DNA of 64,000 nt from Squalus acanthias (Eukaryota), in contig CM059431.1 of assembly GCA_030390025.1 (NCBI GenBank), forward strand, positions 126,420,001-126,484,000, written 5' to 3'. The notes under the pieces were generated by a model. It was not told where the DNA came from. It saw nothing but the letters and a program-made list of their open reading frames with translations, and did not search any database. Shown piece by piece: positions 584 to 62,648 of the stretch (positions within the stretch are counted from its first letter, which is position 1; each line of letters starts with the position of its first letter). The position numbers and the translations under genes were made by a program.

Positions 584-769
584 ATTAAACCCCGGATCCC
601 CATTGCTCACCACATCCCCATCATTCCATCCAGCTGAAATGAGACACACCAGAAAATAATCCAAACTGAATTAATACATTTATCAATAATCAGTTAACAC
701 ATATTTACAACAACAATATTAAGTTTTCACCCTTGTGCAATCCCATAGTGCCTCTCGATATAGTGTCTT

Positions 770-7100: not shown

Positions 7101-7170
7101 AAAGACCATATGCACAAAATCAACTGCACTATACTCATCAACCCTTTCCGTTACTTCATCAAAGAACTCA
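7101..7170 (-). mobile_element. Old CR1 RT fragment (scaffold piece)
   Basis: The minus strand reads EFFDEVTERVDEYSAVDFVHMVF and is contiguous with KAFDKL ending at 4574. Confidence 0.75.
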
Positions 7171-7179
7171 GTGTTGACA

Positions 7180-9817
7180 TCCTGCACAAACCTGAAGTGC
7201 TGTGCGCGAGACACTGGGTGCCCCTTCCCTGGCTTGTTGAGCCACTTGTGTTAGTGCTGAAGCACCTTAACCATTTTTTTATGTGTGAAAGCAGTTCAGC
7301 TTTAAGAGTTGAAGACTGCCATTGTGGAATTATTTTTAATGTTTATTTCTTTCACAAGGCAGTTGAGCTCTAAGGACTAAAGACTGCCTATTTTTAAATA
7401 ATTGTTATTTTTTTCATTTTAGAAGGCAGTTCCCTTTTAAGGGATCAACACTGCTTTCTAAAATGACAGGCTAGGTTTAAGACAATGCTGCCTTGTTCCA
7501 GGGACGCTACGGCAACGTTACATTGAGCCTCCTGCTGAGACTACTGCCGGACAAAGAGTGTTGCGCGCCAGGTTTTGTGCAGCGCTAATTTAAATTAGCA
7601 GGCAGCATAGGGGAAACATTTGTGCTTGCCAGTAAAGTTGCCAGTGTCACTGGCAACTGGAGTTAATGGCCGCTGAGAATGGCTGCAATGCTAATGGAGT
7701 GAAATTGGTCTGGGGGGCATGGAGATTGGTGGCGCAGCACTTACCTTCCATAGAGTGCCATCCTGGTGACGTTGCTGGAGGCAACTGAGGCAAAGTTCCT
7801 GTCAAGGTGTGGCATTGAAGCTTTGCAAAACCTCTGGTATCGAGGCTTTGGAGTTCGCAAGGAATTGTGGGTAAAGAAGAAGTCTGAGAATTAAAGGGGC
7901 CATGCACACTGAAGCAATACAAAATTAAAGGAAGTGAAACAATGCAGTTTTCTGCCCTTTCTGCCTTTTTAAAAATAGTTAACATTAAAAAGAAGTCCCA
8001 AATGTGAATATTCAGCTCTTAAAGCTGAATTACCTTCCTAACCTCAACAAATGGGAAAATTACCTCAGCACTAACACAAATGGCTCAGCAAGCCAGGGAA
8101 GGGGCACCTAGGGTCTTGCACGCAGCACTCCAGCTTTGTGCAGGGGGTCAATACTACAAGAGAGGTCCTCTACCCACAAGGGCTATGAGGCCCTCCAGAA
8201 AGAAAGCTGTGGGACCAGATCACCGAGGCTGTCACTGTCTGCAGTACCACCTCCACCACCTGGCTCCAGTGCCCAAAGAAGCTTCATGACCTCAGACCAC
8301 TGGTCAAGGTCAGTGAATGCATCTTCAAAAGTCGTCTCCTACCAACTGCACCACTAGTGACACACACTGCTCAATGCACGACCCCCAATCACTCACCAAC
8401 AATCTGCATCAATCATGAGGCACACCTCCCATTTCTAGCCTCACCTCACCCCCTTGGAGGAGACGGTGCAGGCCCTTCTTGGCAGTGGAATGGCTAAGCC
8501 CTTGGCCAGCGGCGGGACTGAAAGGATACAAGATGCTGGTATCCTCATACGTTATCCTCCTTCTGGTGTGCACCTCTTGCTTTCCCGCTCTCCCCTCACC
8601 ACAGCTCCACCCTGTGCCTTCCTCATTTCACACACCCAAGAAATGCAGCCTGCACAGCCAGTGGGTGACCAAGAAGAGGGGGAAGAGAGTGAAAAAGAAC
8701 AAGAACAGAGAAGAAGAAGAAGGTTGATTTGACACTCCCAGCCACCAGCTCCTCAAGATCGACCAGCAAGGCCATTTGCAGTGTTCCCCACTGAAAGTCA
8801 TCAGCCTTCCACCAGCCATGCTGCAGCCACTGAGGTAGCACTGCGAGACATCAGTAGGATAGGCAAAGGCACACACAAGACAGTCACTAAGAGAATGCTT
8901 ACGGGTGATGAGTTGATTTCTTGATGTCTCATTGGATGAATACATGTATATGGGTGGATTGGAAATTTTGCTTTTTGGTGGCTTTTATTTCAGCATCGTG
9001 GCCAAGAGGACATTGTGATGGTCAGTAACAGATGGAAGGTAAGGTGCGGGACTAATGTTGAAAGGGAATTTGGGGTTATGGTCACTGGGACCTTAGGCAG
9101 ATGATTCCATCCGGGATATCCCAGCCACAACGAGGCTGTCTGGGATGTATCCTTCCTCTTCTGCTTCCTCCTCTTCTGTGTCTTCCTCTTCCCTCTGCAA
9201 GCAGATGCTGTAAATGTGAAATGACAGCATAAGATGCTGGAAATACTCATCTGATCAGGCAGCATCTTGACCTGAGACGTGAACTCTGTTTTTCACTCCA
9301 TGTTTTTTGTGACCTGCTGATATTTGCAGCATGTTCTGTCTCCTCAAAGAGCTTCATTTAGCATCCGAGCCCTTGCAAGCGCCCAGCAGCACTCCCTACA
9401 CACTTAAAAAACTTTCACATTCACTATTGCAACAAGCCACCACTTCAATAAAATCAAAAAAAAACAGTCCAAAACTTACATTCAAACTTACCTAATGATG
9501 TGTGTGTCCCTTTAAGAGGTCCAGACATCGCTACTGTCAGCCTGCTTGCACCCCAGGTTAACCTGGCGTGCTTAGAACCCAGCGCTGAATTGAGCGCTAG
9601 GGTCGAAGTTTAAGTTGGTGATGCTAAGTCAATTGCGCGGCAATTGACGTCACCACACCGCCATTTTCTTTCCAGGGCGCTGCCAGTTACCGGCAGCGCA
9701 AAGGGGGGAGAAGAATATGGCAGTCACCACAGGACCCGCTACTAGCTGGCGAAAGAGCGGTGGTCGCCATTTTATCGCCACTTACGGAGTGGCAGTATGT
9801 AGATGAATTTCTAGCCC
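7180..9817. mobile_element. Degraded Harbinger element C (left boundary uncertain)
   Basis: Myb-like start MAQQAREGAPR at 8080, CAAGAAGCTTCATGACCTC-like motif and AAG|GTCAGT donor near 8308. Right TIR AATTTCTAGCCC ends at 9817, identical to the copy D TIR. Confidence 0.65.
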
Positions 9818-10521: not shown

Positions 10522-12120
10522 TCACTATGGCAACCCGTATGGGGCCTAGCTATGCCTGCCTTTTTGTGGGATACGTGGAACATTCTTTGTTCCAGTCCTA
10601 CTCAGGTCCCCAACCTCACCTCTTTTTCCGGTACTTTGATGATTATATTAGTGCTACTTCCTGCTCTCGTCTGAGCTGCAAAATGTCAGCAAGTTTGTTT
10701 CAATTTCCACCCCTCTCTCAGCTCTACATGGTCCATCTCCAACTCCTCCGTCCCTTCCTCGACTTCTCTATTTCCATTTCTGGGGATAGGCTGTCAACCA
10801 ATATCTACTATAAGCCCACTGACTCCCACAGCTACCTTGATTACACTTCCTCCCACCCCATTTCCTGTAAGGACTCTATTCCATTCTTCCAATTTCTCTA
10901 GCTCCGTCGCATCTGTTCTAACAATACCACCTCCCACAACAGTACTTCCGATGTGTCTTCCTTTCTCTTCAACCGAGGATTAACCTCAACTGTAGTTAAC
11001 AGGGGCCTTGACCGTGTTCGTTCCATTTCCTGCTTTTCTGCCCTCATCCTGTCCCTCCTTTACAGAACCACAATAGGGTTCCCTTATTTCCCCCTTTTCT
11101 TTGGGTTATCTGTACCATTGATTGTTTAGAGATAAGTTAGAAAACTAAAGGAGTCCTCAGCTCACCCTCCTTTTTTCTTTCCCTATCTTTCCTGAATACC
11201 TCCCACTCCACCAACCTGCACATTGAACAGATCATCCTCCACCAATTCCGCCACCTCCAGCGCGATGCCACCACTAAACATAACTTGCCCTCCCCTCCGC
11301 TTTTAGTATTCCGAAGGGTCCATTCCCTCCACGACACTCTTCAATCAACCCAAACACCTGCACCCACTCTCACAGCACCTTCCCATGCAAGTGCGGGAGA
11401 TGCAACACGTGCCCTTTCACCTCCTCCCTTCCTACCATCCTGGGCCTCAAATATTACTTTCAGATGAAACAGCGATTTACTTTTAGTTCTTTCAATTTAG
11501 TATACTGTATTCGCTGCTCACGATGTGGTCTCCACTACATTGGGAGACCAAACGCAGACTGGGTGACCGCTTTGCGGAACACTTCCATTCACTCCGCAAG
11601 TGTGACTCCAAGCTTCCAGTTGCTTGCCATTTTAATTCATCATCCCACTCCCACACTGACCTCTCTGTCCTTGGCCTTCTACACTGTTCCAATGATGCTC
11701 AGCGCATGCTCAACAAACAGCGCCTCATCTTTCGATTAGGCACTTTACAACCTTCTGGACAATGAGCTAGAAATTGATTATAGCCCAGGAATGGGCAGTA
11801 TCATTCGAAAAGTTGAAGAATTAGCGCCAGGCATTAATGCTTTAGACTGCACGCATATTCATTCTCACTGCTCAAAGAAATGATTGGAGCGCTAATTCAA
11901 GTCTTAAAGCCAAAGCTCATTGGCGTTACACTCAAAGGGTGGACCAATACTACATGCAGTCTAATCGCAAGTCATCATTGCCACAGGCTATTTCCAATTC
12001 TTAAAGTGGAGGTTCATTGATGCTGCAGAACCTCATTCTCAGCATTGCTGGCTGTGCAGCTGCCTCAGCAAGGAGAAGCACGTCAAGGAGAATCGCCGGA
12101 TGACTGAAGCAACTGTACTC

Positions 12121-14003
12121 ATAGCAGGTCCATGCCCCAGGGAGAGAGCCCGCAGATTCTGTGATCAAGCATTGGAGGCGTTAGCGTTCGCTGTGGAGAG
12201 ACGGAGGGTGGTGCGCTACCCAGCAAGTGGCAGGAGGCCCTTGCCGCAAGTCTTCGGCACCATGTAGAGGGAGGTAGCGCAGCACGTCTCGGGCTGCACT
12301 GTGGTCCCCAGGACCCACACACAGTGCAGGAAGAAATTTAACAACCTCACTCGGGTGGTCAGGGTGAGTCAGTGCTTCAACAAATGTTACCTACCACCAT
12401 CTGAACCACAGTCTGCACACACTGCCCAAAGCACCACATCCCTAGCACTCACCCATCAACAATATCTACCTAACAACAGTCAAACCCACATGTCACGCCT
12501 TGCACAGCTATTCAACTATGGCAGGCACATCACCCAAACACATTGCTCCACACTCATTCACACACTTTCCTTTCCTTGCAGGCCAAGGTGGCTCACAAAA
12601 GGAGGGAGCAGGAGCACAGGCGGGGGACAAGCCGACACCCAACCACAGTCTGCGCTGGAGAATCGAGTGCTGGAGATTATTAGGCACCAGATGGTGGGTG
12701 CCGTGGCCACCGGTGACATTGACCCCCTTGGGGACAACAACACGTATGCTCATCCCTACTCCTTCTTCTCACATCCCACTTCCCCTCACCCCACAAGCCT
12801 TTCGCACTTTCCAGCAATCGTGGTGTACGCATGCATTTCTCCCTTCCTGCCCCCCTCCCCTCACCTTAACTGGACTCTTGTGCCTTTATGCTTTCAGGAA
12901 ATGAGCAATCAGCTAAGCAGCCTGTCCCTGAGTGTACTATAGAGAGCGAGGCAAGAGAAGAGAAGGAGGAACACACCGTATCACAGCATGTCTCACCCGC
13001 AGGCACCAGCTCAGATACTGGCACTACGCGTTTTTAAGAGGCTAGTATAGTAGCGGGATCTGCATGTGGTGAGGCACGGGGACGAGTGGGCTGCAGCAAG
13101 GCCACAGGGAAAGGGTAGCTCGGGGGCCAGCTCCCCGTAGGGCGAGTTTGCATGTGGGTTCTGCTGCACAGGACTCAGATGAGGACCTCGATGGGTAGGC
13201 ATTTAGAAGAACGGTGATGGGCAGGCACATGGAGATGATAGGTGCAATGGCAAGGGTGCCTGAGAGCCTCTCGGCAATGGTAAGGAGCGTGGAGGAGTCC
13301 GCCTCCAACATTGCACAAGGATCTGCACACACCATAGAGCCGATCATTTCCAGTCTTCAAAGGATGGTAAACTCCCAGAGAGACCGTGGCAACCCATACC
13401 TGATGCTGAGTGTGATGGGTGATCGGGCAGCTTTCATTGCAGCACAGGCAGAAGCAACGCAACGTCCTAGTGCTGTAATACCGGCTATGCTTGGTGGCAT
13501 CCAATCTCAGGCTGCTCTCACGCAGTCTCAGCTTGATGCCATGCAAGCTCTGACTGCTGCCATCGTGGCTGGGTCTACCACCGTCGACTGGCGCTTTCAC
13601 GGTGTCACAACATGCCAGCAATCTGTGCTGCAACAGATTGCTAGGGATGCTGAGGTGCTGCCCCGGGGGAGTGGGTCAGTGGGGCAGGAACCTGCTGTCC
13701 TCTCTCAGGATGACAGCATTCCTGCTCCCACCACTGCCACTCTGCAATTGCCCTTGTCGCTGCCTGTCATCCAGCCAGCCCAGACTGCTGCCGCCTATGC
13801 TGAGGTGGTGCAGTCTACCCCCGGGCCTTCCAGGCACAGAGCTGGTTGAGGGCATCCTGCAAGGTCATCTGAAGACTCCCGCATGAACACTCAGCAGCCT
13901 TCCACCAGCCTTGCTGCAGCCACTGGGCCAACACTTCTTAGGAGCACTAGAGTAGGCAAAGGCATTATATTGAGAGGCACTAATGGATTGCACAAGGGTG
14001 AAT
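12121..14003 (+). pseudogene. Harbinger Myb/SANT-like gene (introns 12364-12581 and 12744-12897)
   Basis: RERARRFCDQALEALA...VVPRTHTQCRKKFNNLTRVV; exon 3 includes ORF 13214-13849. Several stops and frameshifts. Confidence 0.85.
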
Positions 14004-14170
14004 AGTTAATATTTTTGGTGCAAATATGTGCTCACTGATTTTTGATACATTTATTCATTCAGTTTGGATTCTTTTGTGGTGTGTCTCATTTCAGCTTTGC
14101 GCTGTGAAATGGCCTGCGACAGGGATGGAATGATGGGGATTTGGTGACGAATGGGGATCTGGGGTTTAAT

Positions 14171-15397
14171 TTATTGGAACCGCAGTCTGATGAGGTGATC
14201 ACAGACCTCCCTTCCAGAAGGCCGATTGAGTGGGTGCCTCCTCCCTCGCTCCTGTTCCTCCTCCTCCTCGTACTCCTCCTCCTCCTCCTCTCCCACTTCC
14301 TCCTCCTTAGGTGCTCCCTCAATCCCTGGTAGCAAGGGCTGGGCCCTCATGATGACCAAGTTGTGGAGCATGCAGCAGACCACCACGAAATGGGACACAC
14401 ACTCAGCCGAGTACTGGAGAGCTCCTCCCGAGTGGTCAAGCTAGCGAAAACGTTGCTTTAGCACCCCGATGGCCTGCTAGATGAGGTTCCAGGTTGCAGC
14501 ATGGCTATCATTATATGAGTGCTGGGCAGGATTGTTGGGGTTGTGAAGTGGAGTCATGAGCCAGGTGGAGAGTGAATAGCCCTTGTCTCCGACCAGCCAG
14601 CCCCGAGCTTGACATGATGGTTGGAAAAGTGCTGGCACACCAGTCTGGCACAGGATGAAGGCATCGTTGCTGCTGCCAGGATAGCAGGCATGGACGGTGA
14701 GGATTCGCTGTGTGTGGTCACACACCAACTGCACATTAAATGAGTGGTAGCCCTTGTGATGACGGAAGATCTTAGGATTGTTATGCGGTGCCCGCAAAGC
14801 CACGTGGGTGCAATGTCAACCTTCACCATGGGGAATCCCGCTATCCTGGCAAAGCCACATGCATGCTCGTCCTGCTTCTCTCTGGTGATGGGGAAAGAAA
14901 TCTATTCCCTTCTCCTACTGTAGTGCACTTCTGTGACCTCTCGGATGGACGTCGAACTGCAAAATTTTAGCTATGTCTCCTGTTACATATTGGAAGGATC
15001 CACTGGCGAAGAAATTGAGGGCGACGGTGACCTTAACTGCCACTTAGAGAGCCATGGTCACCCTGATCTGAGGCTCCAGGTCTGGTTGCAGGAGGTGGCA
15101 GAGTCCTGTGACCACTTCCTTGGTGAAGTGGAGCCTTCCAATACACTGCTCCTCACTTAATTGGAGGTAGGAGATTTGCTCTCAGAATACCCTCGGAGAG
15201 TTAGGCCTCCTGTTGAGAGCCCTGATGGCCCTCCTCTTCCCTCTGGCCACATGTTCCACTCTTTCTCGCTGCCTCCACTCCCTCCACCGTTGAACTTGGA
15301 GGGCCAGGTAAGCTGCCAGTACAGCCCCCATTAATGTAAGCATAATGTATCGGTTTGATTTTTTTAAGAATAAATGTAACTGCTTTTTAGTTATCAC
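14171..15397 (-). pseudogene. Harbinger (HARBI1-like) DDE transposase
   Basis: RRPNSPRVF, KGYHSFNVQLVCDH...YPGSSNDAFIL...WLVGDKGY...MLHNL, a poly-Glu tract and the C-terminal LIRLRFQ*. Confidence 0.92.
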
Positions 15398-16079
15398 ACC
15401 ACTCCTGATACTAAATTACCTATAAATTACTGAATTAAACTGTTGCGCAATGTCAAACTGACAAGAAAGCACTGAAACTCCACTAACCTGACAGCTGCGA
15501 CTCATTACTCATGATCCCTTTAAATAGCGTCCCTGAAGCCAGCTTCCGGCTGCTTCACGCCAGCTCTCCCTGTCATTGTTTGGTCTGGGCACTAAGGTAG
15601 GTGGCAACAATCAATTTCACAGATCGGGCAGCCAGTGAGCGTTGCATGCTGACTGATGTCATGGTCTGCCTGGCGTTGAAGTCCCCGGTGGTATCTTGTA
15701 CCGGCGGCGCAACCGGGGGTGCCGGATTTGCCGTGCATCGCTGGATTTCCCTTGCCCCAGTAATGGGAGGCACTACGAAACTGAATTTTTTCCCCATTGA
15801 GTTCAGCAATTTCAGATTATAAACACTGCTCCCATTTTTTTCAGACAGCAGGTGCTGGTAATGGTTCTGCTGTCGCCAATTACAGCTCCTCTAGACCCAT
15901 GTTTTGTTTCTTTATTTGTCCCATTACCACCCCCTGTTGCCTTGAACCATCGTCCCATTTCTCATTTAACCACTTCTGCCTTCTATCCTATCACAGACCT
16001 TCTCCTTTGTTCTTTTCTCCCTTCCCCCTTTCCCTGCCTCTGTACTTGCTTAAAAACTGTTACATCTCCAACTTCTTCC

Positions 16080-17890: not shown

Positions 17891-18626
17891 GGCCCAAAAA
17901 TTCGTGAGGGAGCCTTCGTGCGAGGGTAAGGCCACCCCGCGATCTCTCACTGCGCGCTGGCTTTTTCAGTCCGAGCTCGCACGAACTTGATGTTCTGGAC
18001 AGCAGCTGTGCAGGGCTTCCGTATCCCACAGGCGTAGTTAATTCGTGCGAGCTGTGGGATCACGTGACTCAGTTAGAGCCAATGGCAGCACACCATCTTT
18101 CATTCATAGCTTTCACATAAGTGCTGTGAAAGCTATGAATCTATACCCCCCAAAAGAACAGCTAAACCTCAATTAAATTTAAAAAAACCATCACATTAAT
18201 AAAATAAGTATAGTTAAATAAATTAACCATTTTAAACAAAAAATTAAATTTTTGAAAAATTTAAAATCTTTTAAAAAGTTAGAAAAATAAACTTACCTGT
18301 CTTTAAAGTCTCTAAAAAAGATATACCTGTTAAAAAAAATTCAAAATAATACTTAATTAACGACATACCTTGTTAAAAGAGGGTCTTACGCCTCCTTTCT
18401 TTATGTCTAAAATGTTCCATGCTTACCTGCGCGTTCAAAGCACTAAGTGCACTGCGTGCGCGCAGCCTGTAGCGCGCACGCGGTTCATCTAGGAACCGCC
18501 CCCTTTTGAATTCACCAAGTGCCGGTTTTCAGCGCATGCGCAGTGCATGCAGAAAACCGGCAATTGGAGACAGAATATGCGAGAGTACACAGTGCGTACT
18601 CTCGCGTAGCGGGACTATTTTGGGCC
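17891..18626. mobile_element. Harbinger-like MITE family 1, copy 2
   Basis: GGCCCAAAA...TTTTGGGCC termini, AAT/AAT TSD, homologous to 1271-2034. Confidence 0.92.
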
Positions 18627-21514: not shown

Positions 21515-21985
21515 TATGAGGATGGAACAACAACAACTTGCATTTATATAGCAGTTTTAACTCAGTAAATAGTCCCAAAATGCTTCATAGGAGTGTTATC
21601 AAACACAATTTGACACCGAGCCACACAAGGGCATATTAGGACAGGGCTTAGTCAAAGAGGTAGGCCTAGAAATTAGATATGGCCTGAAAACGGGCAGTGT
21701 CATGGCCCAGCGCTATTTAGCTGCGCCGGGTCAAAGTGGTCTTGGAAGTAGGCATAATCCGTGTTCAGTGCTCATTTACATGATTATAGTGCTGATCCCA
21801 GTGCTAAAATGCTGCTTATTGGCTTAATGCTCAACAGGTGGGCCAATGTCAGGTGCAGTCTAATTCCCAGTCATGTTTGGCCGAGGCTTTCTCCACTACT
21901 TAAAGTGGAATGTTCTTTGACGCAGGAGCACCTCATTGTCATTGTATTTGGAGCACCACTTGGAAGCAGAACTGACTAGGAAGAG

Positions 21986-23888
21986 ATGACTGAGGGGCAG
22001 CAGAGGGAGAGAACAACACAATTCTCAGATGCGGCTCTGGTGGCTGTGGAAAAGTGGCGGGCTGTCCTCATCCAGCAAGCCAGTAGGAAGCCATCGGCCA
22101 ATACATGTAGAAGGCTGTAGCAGGAGATATCTGCTTATGTGACGGCCAACAGCGTGGTCGTCAGGTCCTTGTCCAATGCTGCAAGAAGTTTAATGACCTC
22201 ACAAGGAAGGTCAAGGTGAGTGAAGGCTTCAGCAAATGCCATATCCCACCATCTGCACCACAAGCCTCACACACTACTCAATGCACCACACCCCCAGCAT
22301 TCACCTACCAACAATCTCTACCTATCACCACTCAGACCGCAAAATCATAGCTTCATTTCACTCTCACAACCTTACCACTGTTGCAATACTCAAACCCACA
22401 TCTCACACCGTGCACACACTGACAGCTATTCAGCTTTGGAAGGCACATCATCCAAACACATTGCACCACACTCACTCACACACTTCCCTTTCTCTTGTAG
22501 GCTATGGTCGCGCACAATCGCCGGCAGCAGCAGCAGAGAGGCAGGGGGCAAGCCGCGACACAAACCTTGAGTCAACTGGAGGAGAGAGTGCTCGACATCA
22601 TTGGACGGGAAGTCACTGAGGCCGTGGCAACAGGTGAAGCTGAAGCCCTTGGGGAGAAGAACGGTGTGCTCATTCCTAATCCTTCTTCTCACATCCCACT
22701 TCCCCCTCAGCCCACAATCTCTCTCACTTACAAGCTGCTGATGCAGTATGCATGGATATTTTGCTCTCCCACCCCCTACCCCCACCACAACCCAACCCTT
22801 GTGCCTTTCTGCCTTCAGATAACCAAGGACAAGCAGCCACAGAGCCCGTCCATGAGGCAATGGAGGAGAGGGAGGGGGGAGATAAGAAGACACAGTGACA
22901 CTCGCAAACACCAGCTCAGAAACTAGTACAGCGCGTAATCTGGAGGGTAGTGTAGAGGTGGGATCTGCACAGGGTGAGGCAAGGGGTACGAGTGGGCTGC
23001 AGCAAAGCCTGCAGATAGTGTAGCTCAGGGGCCAGCTCCCTGGAGGGCGAGTTCGCGCACGAGTTCTGCTGCACAGGTCTCAGATGCGGACATCGATGGG
23101 TCAGCCTTCAGAAGAAGGATGATGGGCATGCTCACGGAAATGATAGGTGCAATGGCAAGCCTGCCAGAGAGCCTCTCGGCATTGCGAAGGTGCATGGAGC
23201 AGTCTGCCTCCAACATTGCACGGGGCTCTGCGCAGAGCATGGAGCCCAGGATTTCCAGTCTGGAAATGATGGTACACCCCCAGAGAGACCGTGGCGGCCC
23301 AGACGTGATGGCACGTATGATGGGCGATTTCGCAGCTTCCATTGCAACACAGGCAGAAGCGACCCAACGTCTCAGTGCTGCAGCGGAAGCTCAGACTGCT
23401 CTCATGCAGTCTCTGCTTGGTGGCATCCAAGCTCTGATTGCTGCCATCGTGGCTGGGTTTGCCACCATTGACCAGGGCTTTCACAGTTTTGCAGCAGGCC
23501 AGTAATCTGTGCTCCAACAGATTACTAGGAATGCTGAGGTATTCTGGGGGAGTGGCAGTGGGTCAGTGGAGCAGAACCTGCTGTTCTCTCTCAGGGTGAC
23601 AGCATTCCTGTTCCCACCACTGCCACTCCGCCATTGCCCTTGTCGCTGCCTGTCAGCCAACCAGCCCAGACTACTGTCACCCATACCGAGGTAGTGCAGT
23701 CTACAGCTGGGCCTTCTAGGTCCAGAGCTGCTCGAGGTCATCCAGCAAGGCCATCTGAAGTCTCTCCCATGGAAACTCAGCAGCCTTCCACCAGACCTTC
23801 CGCAGCCACTGGGGGCGCACTTTGTATGAGCACTAGAGCAGGAAAGGGCACCTGAACGACAGGCACTAAGGGATTGGACAAGGGTAAT
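21986..23888 (+). pseudogene. Harbinger Myb/SANT-like gene (introns 22216-22500 and 22664-22818)
   Basis: RERTTQFSDAAL...QCCKKFNDLTRKVK|gtgagt. Exon 3 is homologous to copies A and B. Confidence 0.85.
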
Positions 23889-23889
23889 T

Positions 23890-24681
23890 AGTTGATACAT
23901 GTGGAAGTATGATATCATAGCTATTCCTGAAACATGGCTGAAAGAAGGGCAGGAATGGCAGCTCAACATTCCTGGCTAGAGGGTTGTCAGACGAGATAGA
24001 GAGGGGGATACAAAAGGAGGGTGGTCGCAATATTCATTAAAGAAACAATTACAGCTGTGAGGAGGGATGATATGTTAGAAGGATCATCAAATTAGGTCAT
24101 ATGGATTGAACCGAAGAACAAAAAAGGGGCAATCCCACTGCTGGGAGTGTACTATAGACCCCCAAATAGTCAGAGGGAGATATGAAGCAAATTTGTAGAC
24201 AAATTTCTGAGAAGTGCAAAAACAATAGTAGGGGATTTCAACTACCCTAATATATACTGGGATAGAATCAGTGTAAAAGGTATAGAGGTTGCATAGTTCT
24301 TAAAATGCATTCAGGAGAACTTTTTTAGCGAGTACGTAGTAAGGAGAGGCAGCGGTTCTGGACTTTGTTTTAGGGAATGAAGTTGGGCAGGTGGAAGGGG
24401 TATCAGTGAGAGAGCATTTTGGTGGTAGTGATCATAATTCAGTTAGATTTAGCGTAGTTATGGAAAAGGACAAAGATAGACCAGGAGTAAAAGTTCTCAA
24501 TCGGGGAAAGGCCAATTTTACTAAGCTGAGATGTGATTTAGCAAAAGTGGACTAGAAACAGTTACTTGAAGATAAATCAGTGTCAGAGCAGTGGGAGGCA
24601 TTCAAGGAGGAGATAGTGAGGGTTCAGAGCAAATATGTTCCCACAAAGAAAAAGGGTGAGAGTCCCAAATCTAGCGCCCCC
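23890..24681 (+). mobile_element. CR1 endonuclease fragment inside Harbinger D, replacing the transposase 3' half
   Basis: YDIIAIPETWLKEGQEWQLNIPG, GVYYRPPNS, GDFNYP and GGSDHNSV motifs. Confidence 0.85.
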
Positions 24682-24686
24682 GGGGC

Positions 24687-25331
24687 ATGGTTGCACAACA
24701 AACTGCACATTAAGTGAGTGGTAGCCTTTGCAGGTACAGAAGATCTCAGATTGTTAAGCTGTGCCTGTAAAGCCACATGGGTGCAGTCAATGGCGCCCTG
24801 CACCATGGAGAAGCCCGCTATGCTGGCAAAGCCACATGCGCGATCTTCCTGCTTCTCTCTGCTCAGACAGAAGACGACATAATCCCTTCTCCTGGTTGAG
24901 AGAGCCTCAGTGACCTCCCGGATGCAACGATGGATGGCGAACTATTATATGTTAGCTATGTCTCCTACTGCAGACTGCAAGGATCTGCTGATGAACAAAT
25001 TGATGGCCACGGTGTCCTTGAGGGCCACTGGGAAAGCTGTGGTCACCCTGCTCTGAGGCTGCAGGTCTGTTTGCAGGAGGTGGCAAAGTTCTGTGACCAC
25101 CTCCTTTATGATGCGGAGCCTCCTAATACACTGCTCCTCACTTAGGTCGAAATAAAAGAAGTGCTCCCTGAAGACCCTAGGTGGGTAAGGCCTCCTGTTG
25201 AGAGTCCTCCTGGCCCCCCTCCTCCTCCCTCTGCGCGCATCTTCTCCTCTTCCTCGCTGCCTCTGCTCTCTCTCTTGAATATATTCGAGCTCAAGAGGAT
25301 CTGCCAGTATAGCCCCCATGACTGTGACCAA
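24687..25331 (-). pseudogene. Harbinger transposase 5' half
   Basis: RRPYPPRVFREH...LSEEQCIRRLR...VQGAIDCTHVAL. Confidence 0.9.
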
Positions 25332-26732
25332 TTGTTGTGAGCAGAAGCCTTTAAATAAGAATGAAAGTGCTGTCGACTTGCCCCAACATTCCTGTTACCT
25401 TAGGACTTTGAAACAAGTTTATAACGCTGCTAGAGTTGCAGAAAGTTCCACAGAACCATGTAAAACTGCAGAAGCGTGTCAGCTGCAAGTAGTTGCTGAT
25501 GATCCCTTTAAATACCTCTGCTAGAGCCCCCTTCCTGCTTCTCAACGCTTGCTCAGCTGGTTGCACTTCAGGCATTCCGGTAAGTGAAGGGGCACACTCC
25601 AAAATAGCAATTTGGGCGTCATGTAAGCGATGCACACTCACTGATCTATGGTCTGCATAATCTTGATAATGATCGCGAGTGCACACATCAGCAGCGCTGC
25701 CACCCAGCCAAAAATGGCGGCCACCTTGGGACCCGCTGGCAGCAGGTGGAAGTGCGGCGCACCCCATTTTTTTCCCGAATTGGGCCTTAACAGCTGACAC
25801 TAAACCCCCGAATTTCTAGCCCCTAGTTTTTAAAGAGCATCTTAAAAGAGGAGAGAGAAGTAGAAAGGCTGAGAAGTTTAGGGGGGAATTCCAAAGCTTA
25901 GGGCAGAGGCAGCTGAAGGCACAGCCGCCAATAGTGGAGCGATGAAAATCGGCGGTCCACGAGAGGCCAGAATTGAAGGAGCTCAGAGCTTTCAGAGGTT
26001 TGTAGGGCTGGAAGATATGACAGAGATAGGGAAGGGTGAGGTCATGGAGGGATTTGAAAACAAGGAACATTTTTAAATGGAGGCTTTACTGGACTGGAAG
26101 CCAATGTAAGTCAGCAAGCACAGGGGTGATGGGTGAATGGGACTTGGTGTGAGTTAGGATACGGGCAGCAGAGTTTCGGATGAGCTCAATTTTACGGAAG
26201 GGGCAAGGTGGGAGGCCAGCCAGGAGAGCATTGGAATAGTCAAATCTGGAGGTAATAAAGATATGGATGAGGATTTCAGCAGCAGATTAGCTGAGGTAGG
26301 GATGGAGACGGGAGATATTATGGAGGTGGAAGTAGGCCATCTTGTTGATGGTGAGGACATGGAGTTGGAAGCTCAGCTTAGCAGAACTAAGTTACCAGCA
26401 GGTTCATAATATAGATACATTTGGTGATAAAAGTACAGTTCTATTTGGACAGTAGCAAAATGCAAGAAGTCATGCAACAAGAAGTAAGCCATTTGCCACA
26501 CCATTCCTGCCCCTTCCACAGTGCTTGTATGATCCACCATAATGTTGCATATATAGGCTACACACTATATAATGGTCACACCCCAAAATTGAGGGCCTCC
26601 CAAAATAAAACACAATTAACTCATGTGTAGGCCACACCCTCACTTTAAATGATTATTTTACATCAAAAGCAGTTTGAAAGCCTGTATGCAAGTCAGTAAA
26701 GTGCCCTAATGTGGAATCTTCCCCACAAACAC

Positions 26733-32988: not shown

Positions 32989-33722
32989 GGGCCATATATT
33001 CCGATCCCTATGGGTGTGTACGCGCTATGTACACACCTGTAAGGACATCGGAAATGCCAGTTTCAGGCATGCCAAGCGCATGCGCTGAAAACCGGCATTT
33101 CCGATCTGTCAAGAAAGCTCTTGACAGATCGGACGCCTGTCCTGGAGAAGGGCCTCTGTGGGTGGAGAGTTCCGCTTTCTGGAGAACCTCTGCCCGCAGA
33201 AAACCCTCAGAAATTTTATGCCTGGTAAAAGAGTTGAAAAAAGTTTAAAAAAATAAAAAAATGTCCACTCATTTATCATTTAAAAATACTTTAAAAAAAA
33301 GGTAAGTTTATTTTTAGCCCCGAAAAAAATTGAATTATTTTTTTCAAAAAATTAAATTTTTGTTTAAAATATTTAATTTAATGTAATTTCAACTCATTTT
33401 AAAAATGTGATGTTTTAAAAAAAAATATTTAATGTTTTACAGTGTTTTTGGGGTGATCTCCATTCATGTATTTGACAGGTCTATCTGTCAAGTGTATGAA
33501 GAGAGATTCCCTTCCCCTATTGGCTCCCCATGGCCCACGTGATCCCAGGGACACTTGCGAACCGCATGCGCCCCTGGGAAACGTGGGCCCTGCACATTTC
33601 GAGTTGGAGAGGCCCAGGAATGGAAGTATACGCACCTCGGGAGCCCTCAGGTAAGTCTGTAGATTTTTTCCAGATCGGAGGCCTCTGCACGCATGGAGCC
33701 TCTGATCAGAAAATACGGGCCC
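32989..33722. mobile_element. Harbinger-like MITE family 1, divergent copy 3
   Basis: GGGCC termini with AAT/AAA flanks. Shares the AT-rich core, TGACAG hairpin and CACGTG motif with the other copies. Confidence 0.85.
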
Positions 33723-37780: not shown

Positions 37781-38060
37781 CTTTGCAAGTAATGGACAAC
37801 GTGTTAAAAACCATTGGCAACTACGGTAGCTCCCATGCCATTGTTCACTATCGACTAGGAGCAGAGCCAAAGGGCTTGGGTAGATCTCCAGGAAGCAAAC
37901 GGAACATTTTTAACAATAGGAACTGGAACAACCCATTGCAGTAGCACTTTCTGGGCAACAAGGCTATGCATGCACAACGAGCGAAAAAATTACATTTGTG
38001 TCATAGGGGATTTTTCTACTATGAAATTGTGGACTGTCTTCCACATGGGCACCTTACATT

Positions 38061-38826
38061 GGGCCAGAAATTCGGCGCTTGTCGGGTGAGTACGCACTGT
38101 GTACTCACCCGTAAGGCCACTTGAAGTGCCGGTTTCCTGCATGCACTGCGCATGCACAGGAAACCGGAACTTCCGGTCTCGTGAAGGGAGGGGTTCAGAG
38201 GTGAACCGCGTGCGCGGGAGAGGCTGCGCGCACGCAGCGAACTTCAGGTTTTTTTCAGGTTTCTCCGGGAGAGGTAAGTATGGAAGAACCTGCGCTTTTA
38301 AAAAGGAGGCGCAAGGCCTGTTGTTAACAAGGTAAGTGGTTAATTAATTACAATTGAAAAAATTTTCAACAGGTTTATCTTTTTTAGATACTTTAAAGAA
38401 AGGTAAGTTTATTTTTAGCACCGTTAAAAAGTATAATTAATTTTTTCAAAAATTTAAATTTTTGTTTAAAGTAGTTAATTTATTTAACTTATAGTTAGTT
38501 TAAAAATGTGATGCTTTTAAAAAAAAATTATTTGAAGTTTAAGTGTAGTTTTGGGGCCGATTTCAATTCAGAGATTTGACAGGTCTTCCTGTCAAATCTA
38601 TGAATGAAAATGCCTTGCTAGGATTGGCTCTCCATGGCCCACGTGATCCCAGGGGACGCTTCAAACTAACTGAGCCCCTGGGATACACAAGCACTGCGCG
38701 CTGGCAGCTGGAGGAGGCCCAGGACCCGAAGTTCTCGTGGGCCCAAAACACAACGGCAGGCGCGGTAGGCAAGTACGCGCGCGATGCTTGCACCCGCAGG
38801 AAGCCAGAAAACCGAATTTCTGGCCC
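38061..38826. mobile_element. Harbinger-like MITE family 1, copy 4
   Basis: Perfect 15-bp TIR GGGCCAGAAATTCGG with ATT/ATG flanks. Confidence 0.92.
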
Positions 38827-39059
38827 ATGATGTTCACCAGTTGTTTTTCTTTTACACACGAGAGCGTCTTTCCACGCCGTCTTTCTCTCTGCTTTCGCCA
38901 GCTTTTCCTGTTTCTATTTCAAATTTGTCTTACTTTTCACAGCATCAGCTGTTCACACATCCTCAGTGCCTCCCTTTTATTTCTGTTATTATGCTTCTTC
39001 CTTCTGTCTCGCATTAATATCACTTCAGCCATTTATTATCTCCTCTTTCCCTTTTCAGC

Positions 39060-40633: not shown

Positions 40634-43376
40634 TGTCCGGAACGACGTACTGCTATTGTTGCCTGGGAGCTCAGATGTTTCGACATAGACATCGCCGCCC
40701 TAAGCGAGACCCGGCGGGCAGAGGAAGGCCGGCTCAAGGAGCAAGGCGGTGGTTACACCTTCTTCTGGAAAGGCAAACCAGAAGAAGAACGCCACCTCCA
40801 TGGGGTAGGCTTCGCCATAAAAAATGAGCTAGTTGAATGTCTCAGAGACTCCCCTTGTGGAATAAACGAACGCCTCATGACTCTACGGCTCAGCCTAGCC
40901 CAGAACCAGTGCGCTACGGTCATCAGTGCGTACGACCCAACACTGGAAGCAACAGACAAGACCAAAGAGGAATTCTACTCCAACCTCGAACAATCCCTGT
41001 CCCGAGTCCCAACGGCGATAAGCTGATCCTCCTTGGCGACTTCAACGCCAGAGTTGGAAAGGACACAGACCTCTGGGGAAGTGTGATCAGCAGAGAGGGG
41101 GTAGGGAAAGCCAACTCCCAACAGTACCCTCCTCCTAACAAAATGCTTAGAACATGGCCTTGTCATAACCAACACCTTGTTCCGTCAGAGAGACAAGTAC
41201 AAGGCTTCATGGCAACACCCTCGCTCCAAGGACTGGCATCTGCTGGACTACGTCATTGTCCGAGCGAGGGACCGCAAGGACGTCCGCATCACCCGCGCCA
41301 TGACAGGAGCTGACGACTGCTGGACAGACAACCGCCTAATCCACCCTGTCATCTCCATCAACGTAGCCACCAAAACAGCGGCGGCAACAGAAGCAATGCC
41401 GCAGGAAAATCAACGCTGGAGCACTCAAAGACCCTGCTAAGAAAGCCCTATTCAGCCTGCGCCTCACAAACAACCTGACGACTCCCAGTGATTCAGAGAC
41501 ACAGACTGTCCACAGTGCCTGGTCTGCACTCAAGGCCTCCATAATCAGCACCTGTGAAGAGACGCTCAGTCACTCGACCAGGAAACACCAAGACTGGTTC
41601 GACGAGAACGACCAGGAGATCGAGGAGCTAACAAGCCGCAAGCGCAAGGCATTCCTGATCTGGAAACAGCAACAGAACTCGAGAGCAAGAAAGCAGCTCT
41701 ACAGACGCCTGAAGGCTGAGGTCCAACTAAAAACTCGCGATCTAAAGAACTGATGGTGGGTAGAGAAAGCACAGGAGATCCAGCAGCTAGCCGACAACCA
41801 CGACGTGCGTGGATTCTTTAGTGCTGTCAAGACCATCTACGGCCCAAGGTCCTACCCCACCGCAGGCCAAGAACGGAGAGGTACTCATCAAGGACAGAGC
41901 GGCAGTCAGTACCGCTGGAAGGAGCACTTCGAAGATCTCCTTAACAGAGACTCTGGGCTGGATTTTGATACTGGGGACGTGATGGAGTCGGGACTCCCAC
42001 TTTTTGGGTTGTAGTCCCGCCTCATTGACTTGTAGCCAACCCACTGTATTTTCACTTGATTGACCTTGTTGAGCCCACCCAGCGGGCTCAGCAGGCCAAT
42101 TAAGGGCCACCCGGCAACAAGTGACGTCACAGATTGACATTTCATCATTCAAGAGCTTTTGACAGATGAAATATCAGCGTTTGACAGCTCCTTGAAGCTG
42201 TCAAACACTGACAATCTGTACTCTAAGTTAATTCCTTCCTCTCAGGCTGATTTAGAGATCTCTGCAGAACAAAAAGCAGAGGCTGCAGCTTTGACAGCTC
42301 AACGGCCATTCTGCTTTCTGTGCCAGTGAGATTTCTGACTCCCGAGACCTGAAGGGCTGACACCTGCAGGAGGAAGTTAAGGGAAGTAAAACTTTTTTCC
42401 ACACTTTACACTTACCTTACACACTTACCTCTGCACACATGCACCCATCACTCACCTGCCCACCGGACATATCGACCCCTCCAACCCCTGCAGACCCATG
42501 GTCCGCCTTGCTGAAACAGCATGGTTGGGACCTGTCGGAGAGCCCACATTTCAGGCATAAAAATAGGGATTAGGCAAAAAACTGCCTGTTAACTGCCTGT
42601 TAACTACCTGTTAACAGGCAGTTTATTGCCACTAATCCCCTTCCCGCCTCAGGAAGGCGGGTCCCAGCACAGGTCGGGTACCCGCCTCCAGCGAAACTGG
42701 CATGGAGGCGGGTTGGGGGCGGGATGGGGTCAGGACCCCCGATTCAGCTATTTTCCATCCAGTCCCACCTCCAAACCCGCCTCCACGGCTCAATGAAAAT
42801 TCTGCCCTCTGTCTTCGACATGAGTGTCCTCAACTCCATCCTGCAGCATGCTACCCGCCACCACCTCAGCACAACCCCACCCTGGCATGAGATTGAAAAG
42901 GCCATCCGACAACTGAAGAACAACAAGGCCTCAGGAGCAGATGGAATCCCCGTCGAGGCGCTAAAACATGGCGGTGAGGCACTATTGGCGCGAATACATG
43001 AACTCATTTCTCTTATTTGGAAGGAGGAGAGCATGCCAGGGGATCTCAGAGACGCCGTAATCGTGACCATCTTCAAGAAAGGTGACAAGTCCGATTGCGG
43101 TAATTACAGAGGAGTTTCCCTGCTGTCTGCCACAGGGAAAGTCATCACAAGAATCCTCCTCAATCGCCTTCTCCCAGTGGCTGAAGAGCTCTTCCCAGAG
43201 TCGCAATGCGGATTCCGCCCACTAAGGGGCACAATGAACATGATCTTCACCACGCGTCAACTACAAGAGAAATGCTGGGGACAGCATCAACCACTGTACA
43301 TGGCCTTCTTTGACCTCACAAAGGCCTTCGACACCATCAACCGTGAGGGATTATGGAGTGTCCTCCTCAAATTCGA
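40634..43376 (+). mobile_element. RTE-clade LINE fragment (endonuclease plus RT N-terminus), interrupted by a MITE
   Basis: ERRTAIVA.EL...IDIAALSETR...GVGFAIK, LLGDFNARVG, WHLLDYVIVR, KASGADGIP, ESQCGFRP, FFDLTKAFDTI. Confidence 0.9.
41955..42807. mobile_element. Harbinger-like MITE family 2, copy a
   Basis: GGGCTGGATTTT...AAAATTCTGCCC with an exact TCT/TCT TSD. Excision restores the RTE frame LLNRDSVFD. Confidence 0.92.
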
Positions 43377-46076: not shown

Positions 46077-46904
46077 GGGAGCGATTTTGCCAGCCCTGGG
46101 GAGGCGGGTATGGATGCGGGCCTGCCGGGAAAATGGCAGAATCTGGGAGCGCGTACCCATCCCGCCCCCAACCCACCTCTGTGCCATCTTCCCAGGGGGC
46201 GGATACCCGACCCGCGCCGGGTCCCATCTCCTCGAGGCAGGAAGGGGATTAGTGCCAATTAACTGCCTGTTAACAGGCAGTTTTTTGGCTAATCCCTATT
46301 TTGCGACCTAAAGTGTGGGCTTCCCGACGGCTCCGAACCTCGCCAGGGTCAACGAGGTGAGCCGTGGGTCTGCCGGGGTCGGAGGGGCCAAAATGTCCAG
46401 TGTGCAGGTGAGTGATGAGTGCAAGTGTGGAGAGGTGAGTGTGTGAGGTGAGTATAAAGTGTTTTAATAAGATTACTTACCTTTGCTTCTTCCTCCAGGC
46501 TTCATCCCTTTAGGCTGCGGAGCTGCCTCATCTCACCGGCAGAGAAAGCAGAATGGGTCGCTGCATTGTTAAAGGCAGCAGCCTTCTACTTTCTGCTCAG
46601 GAAAGCTTTCTAAGTGAGCCTTCAGTACAAGGACTCAACTTAGAAGACAGATTGTCAGTGTTTGACAGCTTCACAGAGCTGTCAAACGATGACAATTCAT
46701 CTGTCAAAAAATCTTGACAGATGAAACGTCATTCGCTGATGTCATCTGTCACCGGCTTTCCCTTAATTGGCCTGCTAAGCCTGCTGGGTGGGCTTAACAA
46801 GGTCAATCAAGGGAAAGTAGCATGGGTTGGCAGGACGTCGATGGAGGCAGGACTAAAACCCGACAAGCAGCTTCCATCATGTCCCCATTGATAAAATCAC
46901 CCCC
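46077..46904. mobile_element. Harbinger-like MITE family 2, copy b (opposite orientation to copy a)
   Basis: GGGAGCGATTTT...AAAATCACCCCC with TTC/TTT flanks. Shares the AACTGCCTGTTAACAGGCAGTT palindrome and the TGACAG hairpins. Confidence 0.88.
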
Positions 46905-46906
46905 TT

Positions 46907-55478: not shown

Positions 55479-56243
55479 GGGCCAGAAATTCGGCTCCCTG
55501 GCTTCCCGCGGGTGCAAGGATCACGCGCGCACCTACCTACCGCGCCTGCCATTGACCACTGGGCCCACGGGGACTTCGGCTCCTGGGCCTCCCCCAACTG
55601 CCGGCGCGCAGTGCTTGCGTGTCCCAGGGGCGTAGTTAGTGCGATGCATCCCCTGGGATCACGTGGGCCATGGAGAGCCAATGGCAGCAGACCATCTTTC
55701 ATTCATAGATTTGACAGGAAGACCTGTCAAATCTATGAATACAGATCGGCCCCAAAACATCCCTAAAACTACAAATGAATTATAAAAAAAAATCACATTT
55801 TTAAAATAACTATAAATTACATTAATTAACTATTTTGAACAAAAATTTAAATTTTTGAAAAAATTATTTACATTTTTTAACGGGGCTAAAACTAAACTTA
55901 CCTTTCTTTAAAGTAATTAAAAAAGATAAATCTGTGAAAAAAATGTTTAAATTTTAATAAAATCAACACTTACCTTGTTAAAAGAAGGCCTTGCGCATCC
56001 TTTTTAAAAGTGTATCTTCTCCGTGCTTACCTTCACGGAGGAACCTGTAAAAAAATCCGAAGTGCGAGGCGAACGCGCTGGCCCTCCGGCGTGCGCGTTC
56101 GACCCCTGAACCCCTTTCCTCAGGGGAACGGAAGTGCCGGTTTCCCGCACATGCGCAGTGCATGCAAGAAACTGGCACTTTCGTTCCGTCCACGGGTGAG
56201 TACACAGTGCGTACTCACCCGACAACAGCCGAATTTCTGCCCC
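55479..56243. mobile_element. Harbinger-like MITE family 1, copy 5
   Basis: TIR GGGCCAGAAATTCGGC (1 mismatch), ATT/ATT TSD, reverse orientation of copy 4. Confidence 0.92.
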
Positions 56244-61912: not shown

Positions 61913-62648
61913 GGGCTGGATTTTACCAGCCCTGAGGAGGTGGGTTTGGAGGCGGGACAGCGGGAAAAGTCAATAAAAATGGGAGCAGGTCCCGAACCCA
62001 CTCCCAACCTGCCTCCAACTAATCTTCCCGGGAGTCTGGTCCCCAATTTGCGCAGGGACCTGACTCCTAGTGGCAGGAAGAGGATAATAGCCACTTAACT
62101 GCCTGTTAACAGGTAGTTAACAGGCAGTTAAGAGGCTTTTTCCAATTTTTAAACTTCTGCTGCGGGCTACCCGACGTCGGGGAACCCCGCCAGGGTAAGT
62201 GAGGTGTGCTGTGGGTCTGTTGTACTGTTGGTGTACAGATGACTCCTGCAGAAGTGGTGTGAAGGATGTAGTGGGACACTGGTGAGTATCAGAGGTAAGG
62301 AAATGTTGGGAAAGTCATTTTTAATGTGTTTAGATTTTTCTGTAGTTGACAAGCTTTGAAGTGTTTGTGTGACCTCAACTCAATGGGAGAAGTGACAGAT
62401 TGCTTCTGTACCCTCACCTGCAGCTGCCATCTGTTTCATCCTAAGGAGAGAGTCATTGGACAGCCTGAGTGCAAGGGCTCACCTTTGTACAGTGATTGTC
62501 AGTGTTTGACAGCACCTCAATGCTGTCAAACACTGTCAAATCATCTGTCAAAAATTTATGGAATTCTTGTATCTGATTCACACTATAGAAGTGTATCTGA
62601 TGCTGTGATTGCTGCCAAGGCACTTCCACAATATAAAAAAGTCTGTGC
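61913..62648. mobile_element. Harbinger-like MITE family 2, copy c (right end degenerate)
   Basis: GGGCTGGATTTT start, AACTGCCTGTTAACAGG palindrome, TTTGACAGC...GCTGTCAAA hairpin. Confidence 0.8.

What the first reader, a model, noticed from the sequence alone, without database searches (positions are those of the whole stretch)
38061..38826. Non-coding MITEs carry a conserved same-strand cluster of consensus 5' splice sites downstream of promoter-like motifs: a possible portable promoter/first-exon or U1-recruiting cassette
Seen: family 1 copies hold three co-oriented donor motifs spaced about 58 and 71 nt apart. Copy 4 (+): GAG|GTAAGT 38271, AAG|GTAAGT 38329 and 38400. Copy 1 (-): 1687, 1759, 1817, all MAG|GTAAGT. 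Copy 2 (-): 18291, 18363, 18421. Copy 5 (-): 55896, 55968, 56025. Copy 3 (+) has 33299 and 33648. The motifs persist although the surrounding A/T tracts vary. The CpG-rich end upstream has GCGCATGCGC (copies 1 and 2) and ACTTCCG/CGGAAGT (copies 4 and 5). The other end has CACGTG next to AGCCAAT. Established: MAG|GTAAGT is the U1 snRNA-complementary consensus; these motifs match NRF1, ETS, E-box and NF-Y sites; U1 binding suppresses premature polyadenylation. Inference: the element may donate a promoter and first exon to host genes, or use U1 to neutralise its own A-rich tracts inside introns. The motifs could instead be relics of the parent transposon's 5' UTR or binding sites for the Myb-like protein.
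Basis: partly seen in the sequence, partly recalled or inferred. Interest (0 to 1): 0.75.

Follow-up and report, generated by a model that had tools for sequence, protein, structure and literature searches.

The report
Harbinger mini-transposon keeping three splice donors
A very abundant, non-coding cut-and-paste mini-transposon carries three strong same-strand splice-donor signals, which its founder copies kept while neighbouring bases changed but inserted copies lose at the ordinary rate, so the signals likely serve the transposon's own spread rather than host genes, and no RNA spliced from them has been shown.

Summary
The motifs are real: AGGTAAGT occurs 11 times in 3.8 kb of MITE versus 6 in the other 60 kb. 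Copies 2 and 5 have weaker variants, and copy 3's second site is not homologous. The element is a 766-bp non-autonomous Harbinger-type (PHIS) MITE with a 3-bp AWT duplication and at least 28,254 copies. Its left ~260 bp, with the NRF1/ETS-like palindromes and donor 1, comes from the transposase-promoter end of intact 4.5-4.7 kb parents (transposase + Myb/SANT). The donors are not plain relics: sampled parents are weak at donor 1 and lack donors 2 and 3. All 21 donor-core positions are invariant across five founder consensuses, versus 66% of surrounding columns. After insertion, donors decay like flanks (2.8% vs 2.9%). Intron orientation is 14 sense:26 antisense (p=0.08). Poly(A) signals lie on the strand without donors, so 'U1 neutralises its own A-tracts' fails. 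No splice from these donors was seen in assembled RNA contigs, an insensitive test. Best reading (0.45): element-level selection for U1 sites behind the inherited promoter. The scan reported similar donor-bearing MITEs elsewhere in this genome.

The parts
38061..38826 (+). Non-autonomous Harbinger-type MITE, copy 4 (three-donor clade, subfamily B4)
   Evidence: Self-BLAST and alignment; 39 other full or near-full matches at 91-95% identity among the 40 scored
38061..38075 (+). Left terminal inverted repeat GGGCCAGAAATTCGG; left flank 38058-38060 is ATT
   Evidence: same TIR on autonomous L062
38812..38826 (-). Right terminal inverted repeat; right flank 38827-38829 is ATG (one mismatch to ATT)
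38061..38319 (+). Segment derived from the transposase-side end (promoter / 5' UTR) of autonomous parents
   Evidence: 79-82% identical to L062/L061 over up to 259 bases; 87-88% to L074/L079 over 196
38083..38188 (.). Two subterminal palindromes; the second holds the NRF1-like GCGCATGC (38149-38156) and ETS-like ACTTCCG (38169-38175); shared with parents
   Evidence: motif names recalled
38271..38279 (+). Donor 1, GAG|GTAAGT; parents have weaker CGG|GTAAGT, CGG|GTAAAT or TGT|GTAAG at the homologous site
38329..38337 (+). Donor 2, AAG|GTAAGT; non-donor in parents and in three other MITE subfamilies, where it is a palindrome arm
   Evidence: genome counts
38400..38408 (+). Donor 3, AAG|GTAAGT; within an 11-nt run invariant across 7 of 8 subfamily consensuses; non-donor in parents and the outlying subfamily
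38340..38545 (.). A/T-rich tract, T-rich on the donor strand; AATAAA occurs on the - strand (38408-38413, 38479-38484); two CAG|GT acceptor-like sites at 38258 and 38372
   Evidence: Sequence
38560..38611 (.). Palindrome with compensatory changes between subfamilies
38623..38651 (.). CCAAT (on - strand) and CACGTGATCCCA block; the latter invariant across all 8 consensuses; not found in sampled parents
38729..38826 (+). Segment derived from the Myb-side end of autonomous parents
   Evidence: 81-86% identical to L061/L062
1271..2034 (-). Copy 1 (three exact donors), inserted in a decayed coding Harbinger; ATT on both sides, one trinucleotide at the empty paralogous site
17891..18626 (-). Copy 2 (young subfamily; close relatives 95-98% identical)
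32989..33722 (+). Copy 3 (older clade; donor 3 plus a separate donor at 33648)
55479..56243 (-). Copy 5

Best explanation
This is a non-coding Harbinger-type mini-transposon that kept the transposase-promoter end of its coding parent and whose successful founder lineages held three same-strand U1-type splice donors unchanged behind it, likely because U1 binding on RNA started from that promoter would keep a founder copy transcribed and open to the transposase. Shown: element class, parentage of both ends, invariance of the donors among founders, ordinary decay after insertion, and a donor strand almost free of poly(A) signals. Inferred: that the promoter fires in the germ line, that U1 binds these sites, and that this raises mobilisation. 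Selection would act on the element before it copies, not on host genes afterwards. Donor 1 is a strengthened parental site; donors 2 and 3 were probably gained or kept only in the MITE line.
For: Full parents with transposase (PF13359, E 1e-43) and Myb/SANT (PF13873, E 1e-14) share the TIR and both ends. Donor cores: 21 of 21 columns invariant in five founder consensuses vs 66% of 243 surrounding columns (Fisher p=0.0003; p=0.017 after conditioning on the two subfamilies the finding was built on). Genome-wide for donor 2: with 17 flank bases fixed, 12,659 of 13,441 matches keep all 8 donor bases; with the donor and 9 flank bases fixed, only 12,659 of 28,254 keep the other 8 flank bases, because subfamilies changed them. 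After insertion, donors change at 14/504 vs 146/5020 in flanks (p=1.0). At donor 2, the three differences from the outlying subfamily's site (-2, -1, +6) all match the U1 consensus. Every consensus has at least one strong donor on this strand and none internally on the other. Donor strand 0-1 vs opposite strand 2-6 poly(A) signals in the three-donor clade, the arrangement described for directional promoters (PMC11230626 introduction). RNA contigs show parents are transcribed and their Myb introns spliced (CT..AC joints 4451-4531 and 4680-4953).
Against: No transcript start, U1 binding or splice from a MITE donor was seen. An outlying subfamily lacking donors 1-3 and two other TIR-bounded families with no strong donor also spread, so donors are not required. 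The poly(A)-signal asymmetry is explained by the T>A skew alone (shuffle P 0.18-0.59 for the donor strand). No transcription-type substitution asymmetry on internal branches. Other blocks (CACGTGATCCCA, TTTTTCAAAAA) are equally invariant. Gain versus loss rests on parsimony with an unrooted tree and weak parent homology. Donors were picked after being seen. PMC11230626 itself finds that poly(A) factors usually do not set directionality. Donors 2 and 3 are predicted mostly paired in a single-sequence fold (unpaired 0.15-0.16 vs 0.38 mean).
Confidence: 0.45

Rival explanations
1. Relic: the donors are left over from the spliced 5' leader of an autonomous parent (possibly extinct or unsampled) and ride along without function.
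For: Donor 1 aligns with a GTAAG site about 720 bases upstream of the parent's transposase ATG. Parents carry other donors there and a pyrimidine-rich AG just before the ATG. One RNA contig joins foreign sequence at that acceptor (loose end at L065:1889). Only 20 of the 150 listed transposase hits were fetched whole.
Against: The 8 parents aligned are weaker at donor 1 and non-donor at donors 2 and 3. A relic should decay among founders like its flanks, and it did not. The MITE middle was not found in any of the 20 fetched elements as part of a parent.
Confidence: 0.25
2. DNA site: the GTAAG core is bound by the element's Myb/SANT protein (or a host factor) during transposition, and the splice-site match is incidental.
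For: GTAAG/GTGAG cores recur in palindromes on both strands near both ends of MITEs and parents; donor 2 is homologous to a palindrome arm in older subfamilies. Harbinger ORF1 (Myb-like) binds element ends (PMC2836001 passages). Founder-level conservation fits a cis-acting DNA site equally well.
Against: The parents, which must bind the same protein, lack donors 2 and 3. The three sites lie 210-340 bases inside, all on one strand, and match U1 at -2, -1 and +6, where the palindromic cores differ. No binding motif for these proteins was found in print.
Confidence: 0.2
3. Host co-option: the family acts as a portable promoter/first exon or U1-recruiting cassette kept because it benefits host genes.
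For: The architecture (CpG-rich motifs, then donors) would allow it. Sense copies with three intact donors exist in introns. Maize Ds donors are used in host transcripts (PMC5432752 passages). With tens of thousands of copies, single co-opted copies are likely.
Against: No post-insertion constraint on donors, in sense (3/144) or antisense (10/336) intronic copies. Excess CpG decay. Sense copies are the minority in introns (14:26), as are strong donors generally (631 vs 808). Poly(A) signals are on the strand without donors.
Confidence: 0.1

Closest known systems
Tourist-like MITEs / non-autonomous PIF-Harbinger elements (rice mPing; zebrafish Harbinger3N_DR). PMC2836001, passages read
   Same: Short, non-coding, TIR-bounded, 3-bp duplication, high copy number, parent encodes a transposase plus a Myb-like protein.
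   Different: Duplication is AWT/ANT, not TAA/TWA. The middle is not a simple deletion of the sampled parents, and ends match different parent subfamilies. No conserved donor cluster is mentioned in the passages read.
PHIS superfamily groups (PIF/Harbinger, Pangu, NuwaI/II). PMC4482050, passages read
   Same: DDE transposase plus second ORF; TIR starts GG; ANT duplication as defined for Pangu.
   Different: Pangu's second ORF has no known motif, whereas this parent has Myb/SANT as in PIF/Harbinger and Nuwa. It fits no single group on both criteria; no transposase tree was built.
Maize Ds and Ds1 (hAT) with clustered splice donors. PMC5432752, passages read
   Same: A non-autonomous DNA transposon with three or more clustered same-strand donors.
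   Different: Ds1 sites lie within 35 bases of the termini and are shown to be used. Here they are 210-340 bases inside, would leave MITE sequence in an mRNA, and use is not shown.
U1-site / poly(A)-signal asymmetry at directional promoters. PMC11230626, introduction read (citing Almada 2013 and Kaida 2010, which I did not read)
   Same: U1 sites downstream of a CpG-rich promoter-like region on a strand poor in poly(A) signals; poly(A) signals on the other strand.
   Different: Described for host gene promoters. Here it is in a non-coding transposon, the poly(A) asymmetry does not exceed base skew, and transcription is unproven.

Membership tests
Non-autonomous PHIS (Harbinger-type) MITE | Short, non-coding, terminal inverted repeats | tested here: met
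   766 bp; 15-bp perfect TIR; no Rfam match at gathering score
Non-autonomous PHIS (Harbinger-type) MITE | 3-bp target-site duplication | tested here: met
   Empty paralogous site for copy 1; 9 of 12 young copies exact (two read by eye), 13 of 25 intronic copies with both ends found; 12 of 30
Non-autonomous PHIS (Harbinger-type) MITE | High copy number, subfamilies | tested here: met
   28,254 matches to one donor-2 pattern; 10,892 to a 30-mer; 8 subfamily groups
Non-autonomous PHIS (Harbinger-type) MITE | Autonomous partner with same TIR, DDE transposase and Myb/SANT gene | tested here: met
   L062, L063, L065 and others
PIF/Harbinger group in the strict sense (PMC4482050) | TWA duplication | tested here: not met
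   Mostly ATT/AAT, also AAG, ATG, AGT, CTT
Pangu group (PMC4482050) | ANT duplication | tested here: met
Pangu group (PMC4482050) | Second ORF without known motif | tested here: not met
   PF13873 Myb/SANT in 3 of 3 second ORFs scanned
PHIS subgroups | Placement in transposase phylogeny | not tested
   No reference transposases fetched
TE-derived promoter / first exon (exonised TE) | Junction reads from TE donor to host exon | tested here: inconclusive
   None among shown joints or loose ends in 4 runs of assembled contigs; 298 loose ends not shown; method insensitive
TE-derived promoter / first exon (exonised TE) | Purifying selection on inserted copies | tested here: not met
   Donor 2.8% vs flank 2.9%; family-level only, single co-opted copies not excluded
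TE-derived promoter / first exon (exonised TE) | Transcription start inside the element (CAGE) | not testable with these tools
   Only contigs were listed
Self-splicing-out transposon (Ds1/Introner-like) | Donor and acceptor at the two termini | tested here: not met
   Donors 210-340 bases inside; no pyrimidine-AG acceptor seen at the right end (sequence)

The most novel reading that the evidence does not exclude
Non-coding DNA transposons in this vertebrate genome have evolved U1 splice-donor clusters de novo behind a captured promoter, selected purely at the level of the element: an RNA-level signal (U1 recruitment, keeping the copy transcribed or shielded from silencing of intronless RNA) that raises cut-and-paste mobility of an element that needs no RNA intermediate. 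The younger subfamilies (2-6% diverged) all carry three donors; the older ones (about 10%) carry one or two.
Probability: 0.3. Interest if true: 0.72.

Novelty: new variant of a known kind. Interest (0 to 1): 0.42.

Why it matters
MITE interiors are usually treated as inert filler. Here an RNA-processing signal is conserved among founder copies but not after insertion, which points to selection on the element itself. If U1 recruitment raises DNA transposition, it links splicing signals to cut-and-paste mobility, and this can be tested directly because intact transposase and Myb genes exist in the same genome. It also means this genome holds tens of thousands of ready promoter-plus-donor modules as raw material for new first exons, even though the family as a whole shows no sign of being kept for that.

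Tried and rejected
RNA: no holder on record as RNA was listed; 8 runs were guessed RNA, all contigs. On the MITE, 4 of 8 runs showed no GT..AG joint and no loose end at a donor among the shown rows. On parent L065, no GT..AG joint for the transposase leader among 15 shown joints (10 not shown). Two contigs cross the leader donor unspliced, and contigs also cross the putative Myb leader donor unspliced. Low cover over the leader in two runs was not used. The foreign sequence joined at L065:1889 was not found in any fetched locus. Orientation: c4-type copies were 0 sense:8 antisense, but this was a post hoc split; the whole three-donor clade is 7:13, the same as the older clades (7:13). Neighbouring copies on contig C1 share orientation in 33 of 78 pairs under 100 kb (17 of 42 under 200 kb), arguing against a very strong genome-wide bias. 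Controls gave no clear positive: CR1 75:69, family 2 24:20. The window's own decayed Harbingers share only the TIR with the MITE. Transcription-type substitution asymmetry: none. Rfam: 4 weak hits, all far below gathering score. A recalled resemblance between MSANTD3's motif and GTGAGT could not be confirmed in print and is not used. Literature searches for this feature listed nothing describing it; the library lacks most subscription papers, and supplements were not read.

Full report
Setting. The window is G000:C7:126420001-126484000 in a 3.7-Gb genome. It is made of LINE remnants and decayed Harbinger elements. A shark is likely from the repeat content (recalled) and from earlier scan notes; I did not establish the species.

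Observation. Five related ~760-bp elements lie at 1271-2034 (-), 17891-18626 (-), 32989-33722 (+), 38061-38826 (+) and 55479-56243 (-). The listed coordinates are right. Ten of 14 sites are exact MAG|GTAAGT; the others are GAG|GTAAGT, GTAAGC (twice) and a private GTATGT. Copy 3 has only donor 3, and its 33648 site is a different position. AGGTAAGT occurs 11 times in 3,790 MITE bases and 6 times in the other 60,210. Background in 1.6 Mb of intron is 0.3-0.4 strong donors per 770 bases per strand.

What it is. The element has a 15-bp TIR and a 3-bp duplication, mostly ATT/AAT. The duplication is confirmed at an empty paralogous site and in 9 of 12 very young copies. One donor-2 pattern has 28,254 genomic matches; 40 copies in 1.6 Mb extrapolate roughly to 90,000. 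A PF13359 search gave many open 384-392 aa transposase frames. Of 20 fetched whole, several are full 4.5-4.7 kb elements with the same TIR, a transposase on one strand and a Myb/SANT gene on the other. Copy 4's first 259 bases are 79-82% identical to their transposase-side end, and its last 87-98 bases are 81-86% identical to their Myb-side end. Different MITE subfamilies match different parent subfamilies at the ends while sharing one core, so the ends seem to be refreshed from co-existing parents (inference). By PMC4482050 (passages), the duplication is Pangu-like and the gene content Harbinger-like, so I file it only as a PHIS/Harbinger-type MITE.

Origin of the motifs. The NRF1- and ETS-like motifs lie in palindromes shared with the parents. 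Parents have GTAAG at donor 1 but with GG or GT, not AG, before it. At the sites aligned to donors 2 and 3, none of 8 aligned parents has a donor; several have one about 20 bases further on. Parents have a pyrimidine-rich AG before the transposase ATG. One RNA contig joins foreign sequence at that point, and two Myb introns appear as CT..AC joints, so the parents are transcribed and spliced. The leader intron itself was not seen spliced, and two contigs cross its donor unspliced. The CCAAT/E-box block and the middle hairpin were not found in the sampled parents.

Conservation. Ninety copies were aligned into 8 groups: 38 unselected window and intron copies of 600-850 bases, 3 outlying copies, and 49 chosen by closeness to copies 2, 3 or 4. 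Five consensuses (67-88% identical) have all three donors; two (A1, A2) have donor 3; the outlying group has none of the three but has CAG|GTAGGT near the right end. In the five, 21 of 21 donor-core columns are invariant vs 66% of 243 surrounding columns (p=0.0003; 0.017 conditional). One of the five is a single copy. Parsimony gave 0 internal-branch changes at donor 3 in 38 copies, the top 2.6% of 8-mers. Genome counts agree: donor 2 is intact in 12,659 of 13,441 copies with fixed flanks, while adjacent flank bases match in only 12,659 of 28,254 copies with a fixed donor, because of subfamily substitutions. After insertion there is no constraint: 14/504 vs 146/5020 in unselected copies; 33/1488 vs 413/14937 in all; for donor 3 in the older clade 6/174 vs 352/5168, p=0.09. 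CpG transitions run 1.4-3.8 times the non-CpG rate. Unselected three-donor copies are 2-6% from their consensus, the others about 10%. Other blocks, notably CACGTGATCCCA, are as invariant as donor 3.

Host effects. I took 1.6 Mb from inside three giant CUB-domain genes (CSMD-like by recall; strand). Copies were 14 donor-sense and 26 antisense (p=0.08), split 7:13 in both the three-donor and older clades. Controls: CR1 75:69, second MITE family 24:20. Strong donors of any origin are also rarer on the host-sense strand (631 vs 808). Neighbour orientation on C1 shows no correlation. A mild cost to sense copies is possible; a benefit is not indicated. The three-donor consensuses have 0-1 AATAAA/ATTAAA on the donor strand and 2-6 on the other, which has no internal donor. 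U1 at these sites therefore has almost nothing of the element's own to suppress. The asymmetry does not exceed the T>A skew. Assembled RNA contigs showed no junction from a MITE donor, but that test is insensitive.

Mechanism. Conservation among founders with neutral decay afterwards means selection acts on the element's ability to be copied. The match to U1 beyond the GTAAG core, the single orientation and the position behind an inherited promoter favour an RNA-level role: U1 recruitment that would sustain transcription and accessibility of a founder copy (inferred, 0.45). That U1 promotes elongation and blocks early termination is from PMC11230626's introduction; that this aids transposition is my inference. 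Rivals are a relic of an unsampled parent (0.25), a Myb/DNA site (0.2) and host co-option (0.1). Donors are not essential: donor-poor subfamilies and families also spread.

Known context. The nearest element class is Tourist-like/Harbinger MITEs (PMC2836001, passages). The nearest precedent for clustered donors is maize Ds/Ds1 (PMC5432752, passages). Searches listed no paper on this feature in vertebrate Harbinger MITEs. PMC9392472 (passages) gave background only. Earlier scan notes report the same kind of finding at other places in this genome. They are unreviewed, and one supplied the 'transposon's own U1 signal' wording, which I then tested here.

Verdict. A real feature in an ordinary element class, with one unusual and testable property: founder-level conservation, and probable gain, of splice donors. 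New variant of a known kind; interest 0.42.

Noticed in passing
L242, L243, L245; also L002, L004, L020 and others: In 3 of 12 copies that are 98% identical to copy 2, the two flanks are ATT and AAT (reverse complements) instead of a true duplication. This may mean the ends carry donor-site overhangs or that the middle base is repaired as a mismatch during integration.
   Followed up: partly
window 38061-38319 and 38729-38826 vs L062, L063, L064, L067, L074, L079: MITE subfamilies share one core but their ends match different autonomous subfamilies (copy 1's left 112 bases are 94.6% identical to L049/L067), suggesting repeated end replacement from parents.
   Followed up: partly
window 38083-38188, 38560-38611: Several palindromes keep their pairing through compensatory changes; 45 of 134 consensus pairs show two or more Watson-Crick types across 8 consensuses. 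DNA or RNA level not resolved.
   Followed up: partly
window 41955-42810, 46085-46905, 61913-62400: A second MITE family carries a cluster of AGGTRAGT motifs; 36 intronic copies average 2.5 strong donors on one strand and 1.2 on the other.
   Followed up: partly
L031-L060, L062, L065: Many autonomous Harbingers have open 384-392 aa transposase frames and spliced Myb transcripts in RNA contigs, so the family may be recently or still active.
   Followed up: partly
L065:1889: One RNA contig joins at least 255 foreign bases to the acceptor before the transposase ATG, possibly a host exon spliced into a transposase gene.
   Followed up: partly
window 7-3737, 11764-15400, 21663-25822, 7170-9817: Four decayed coding Harbinger elements with GGGCTAGAAATT-type ends; copy 1 of the MITE is nested in the first.
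   Followed up: partly
   Followed up: no
window 4560-6995: An 811-aa open frame of a CR1-like LINE ORF2 (class recalled from the sequence).
   Followed up: no
G000:C4:133630848: One CUB exon lies on the opposite strand to the rest of a cubilin-like cluster: a local inversion or assembly error.
   Followed up: no
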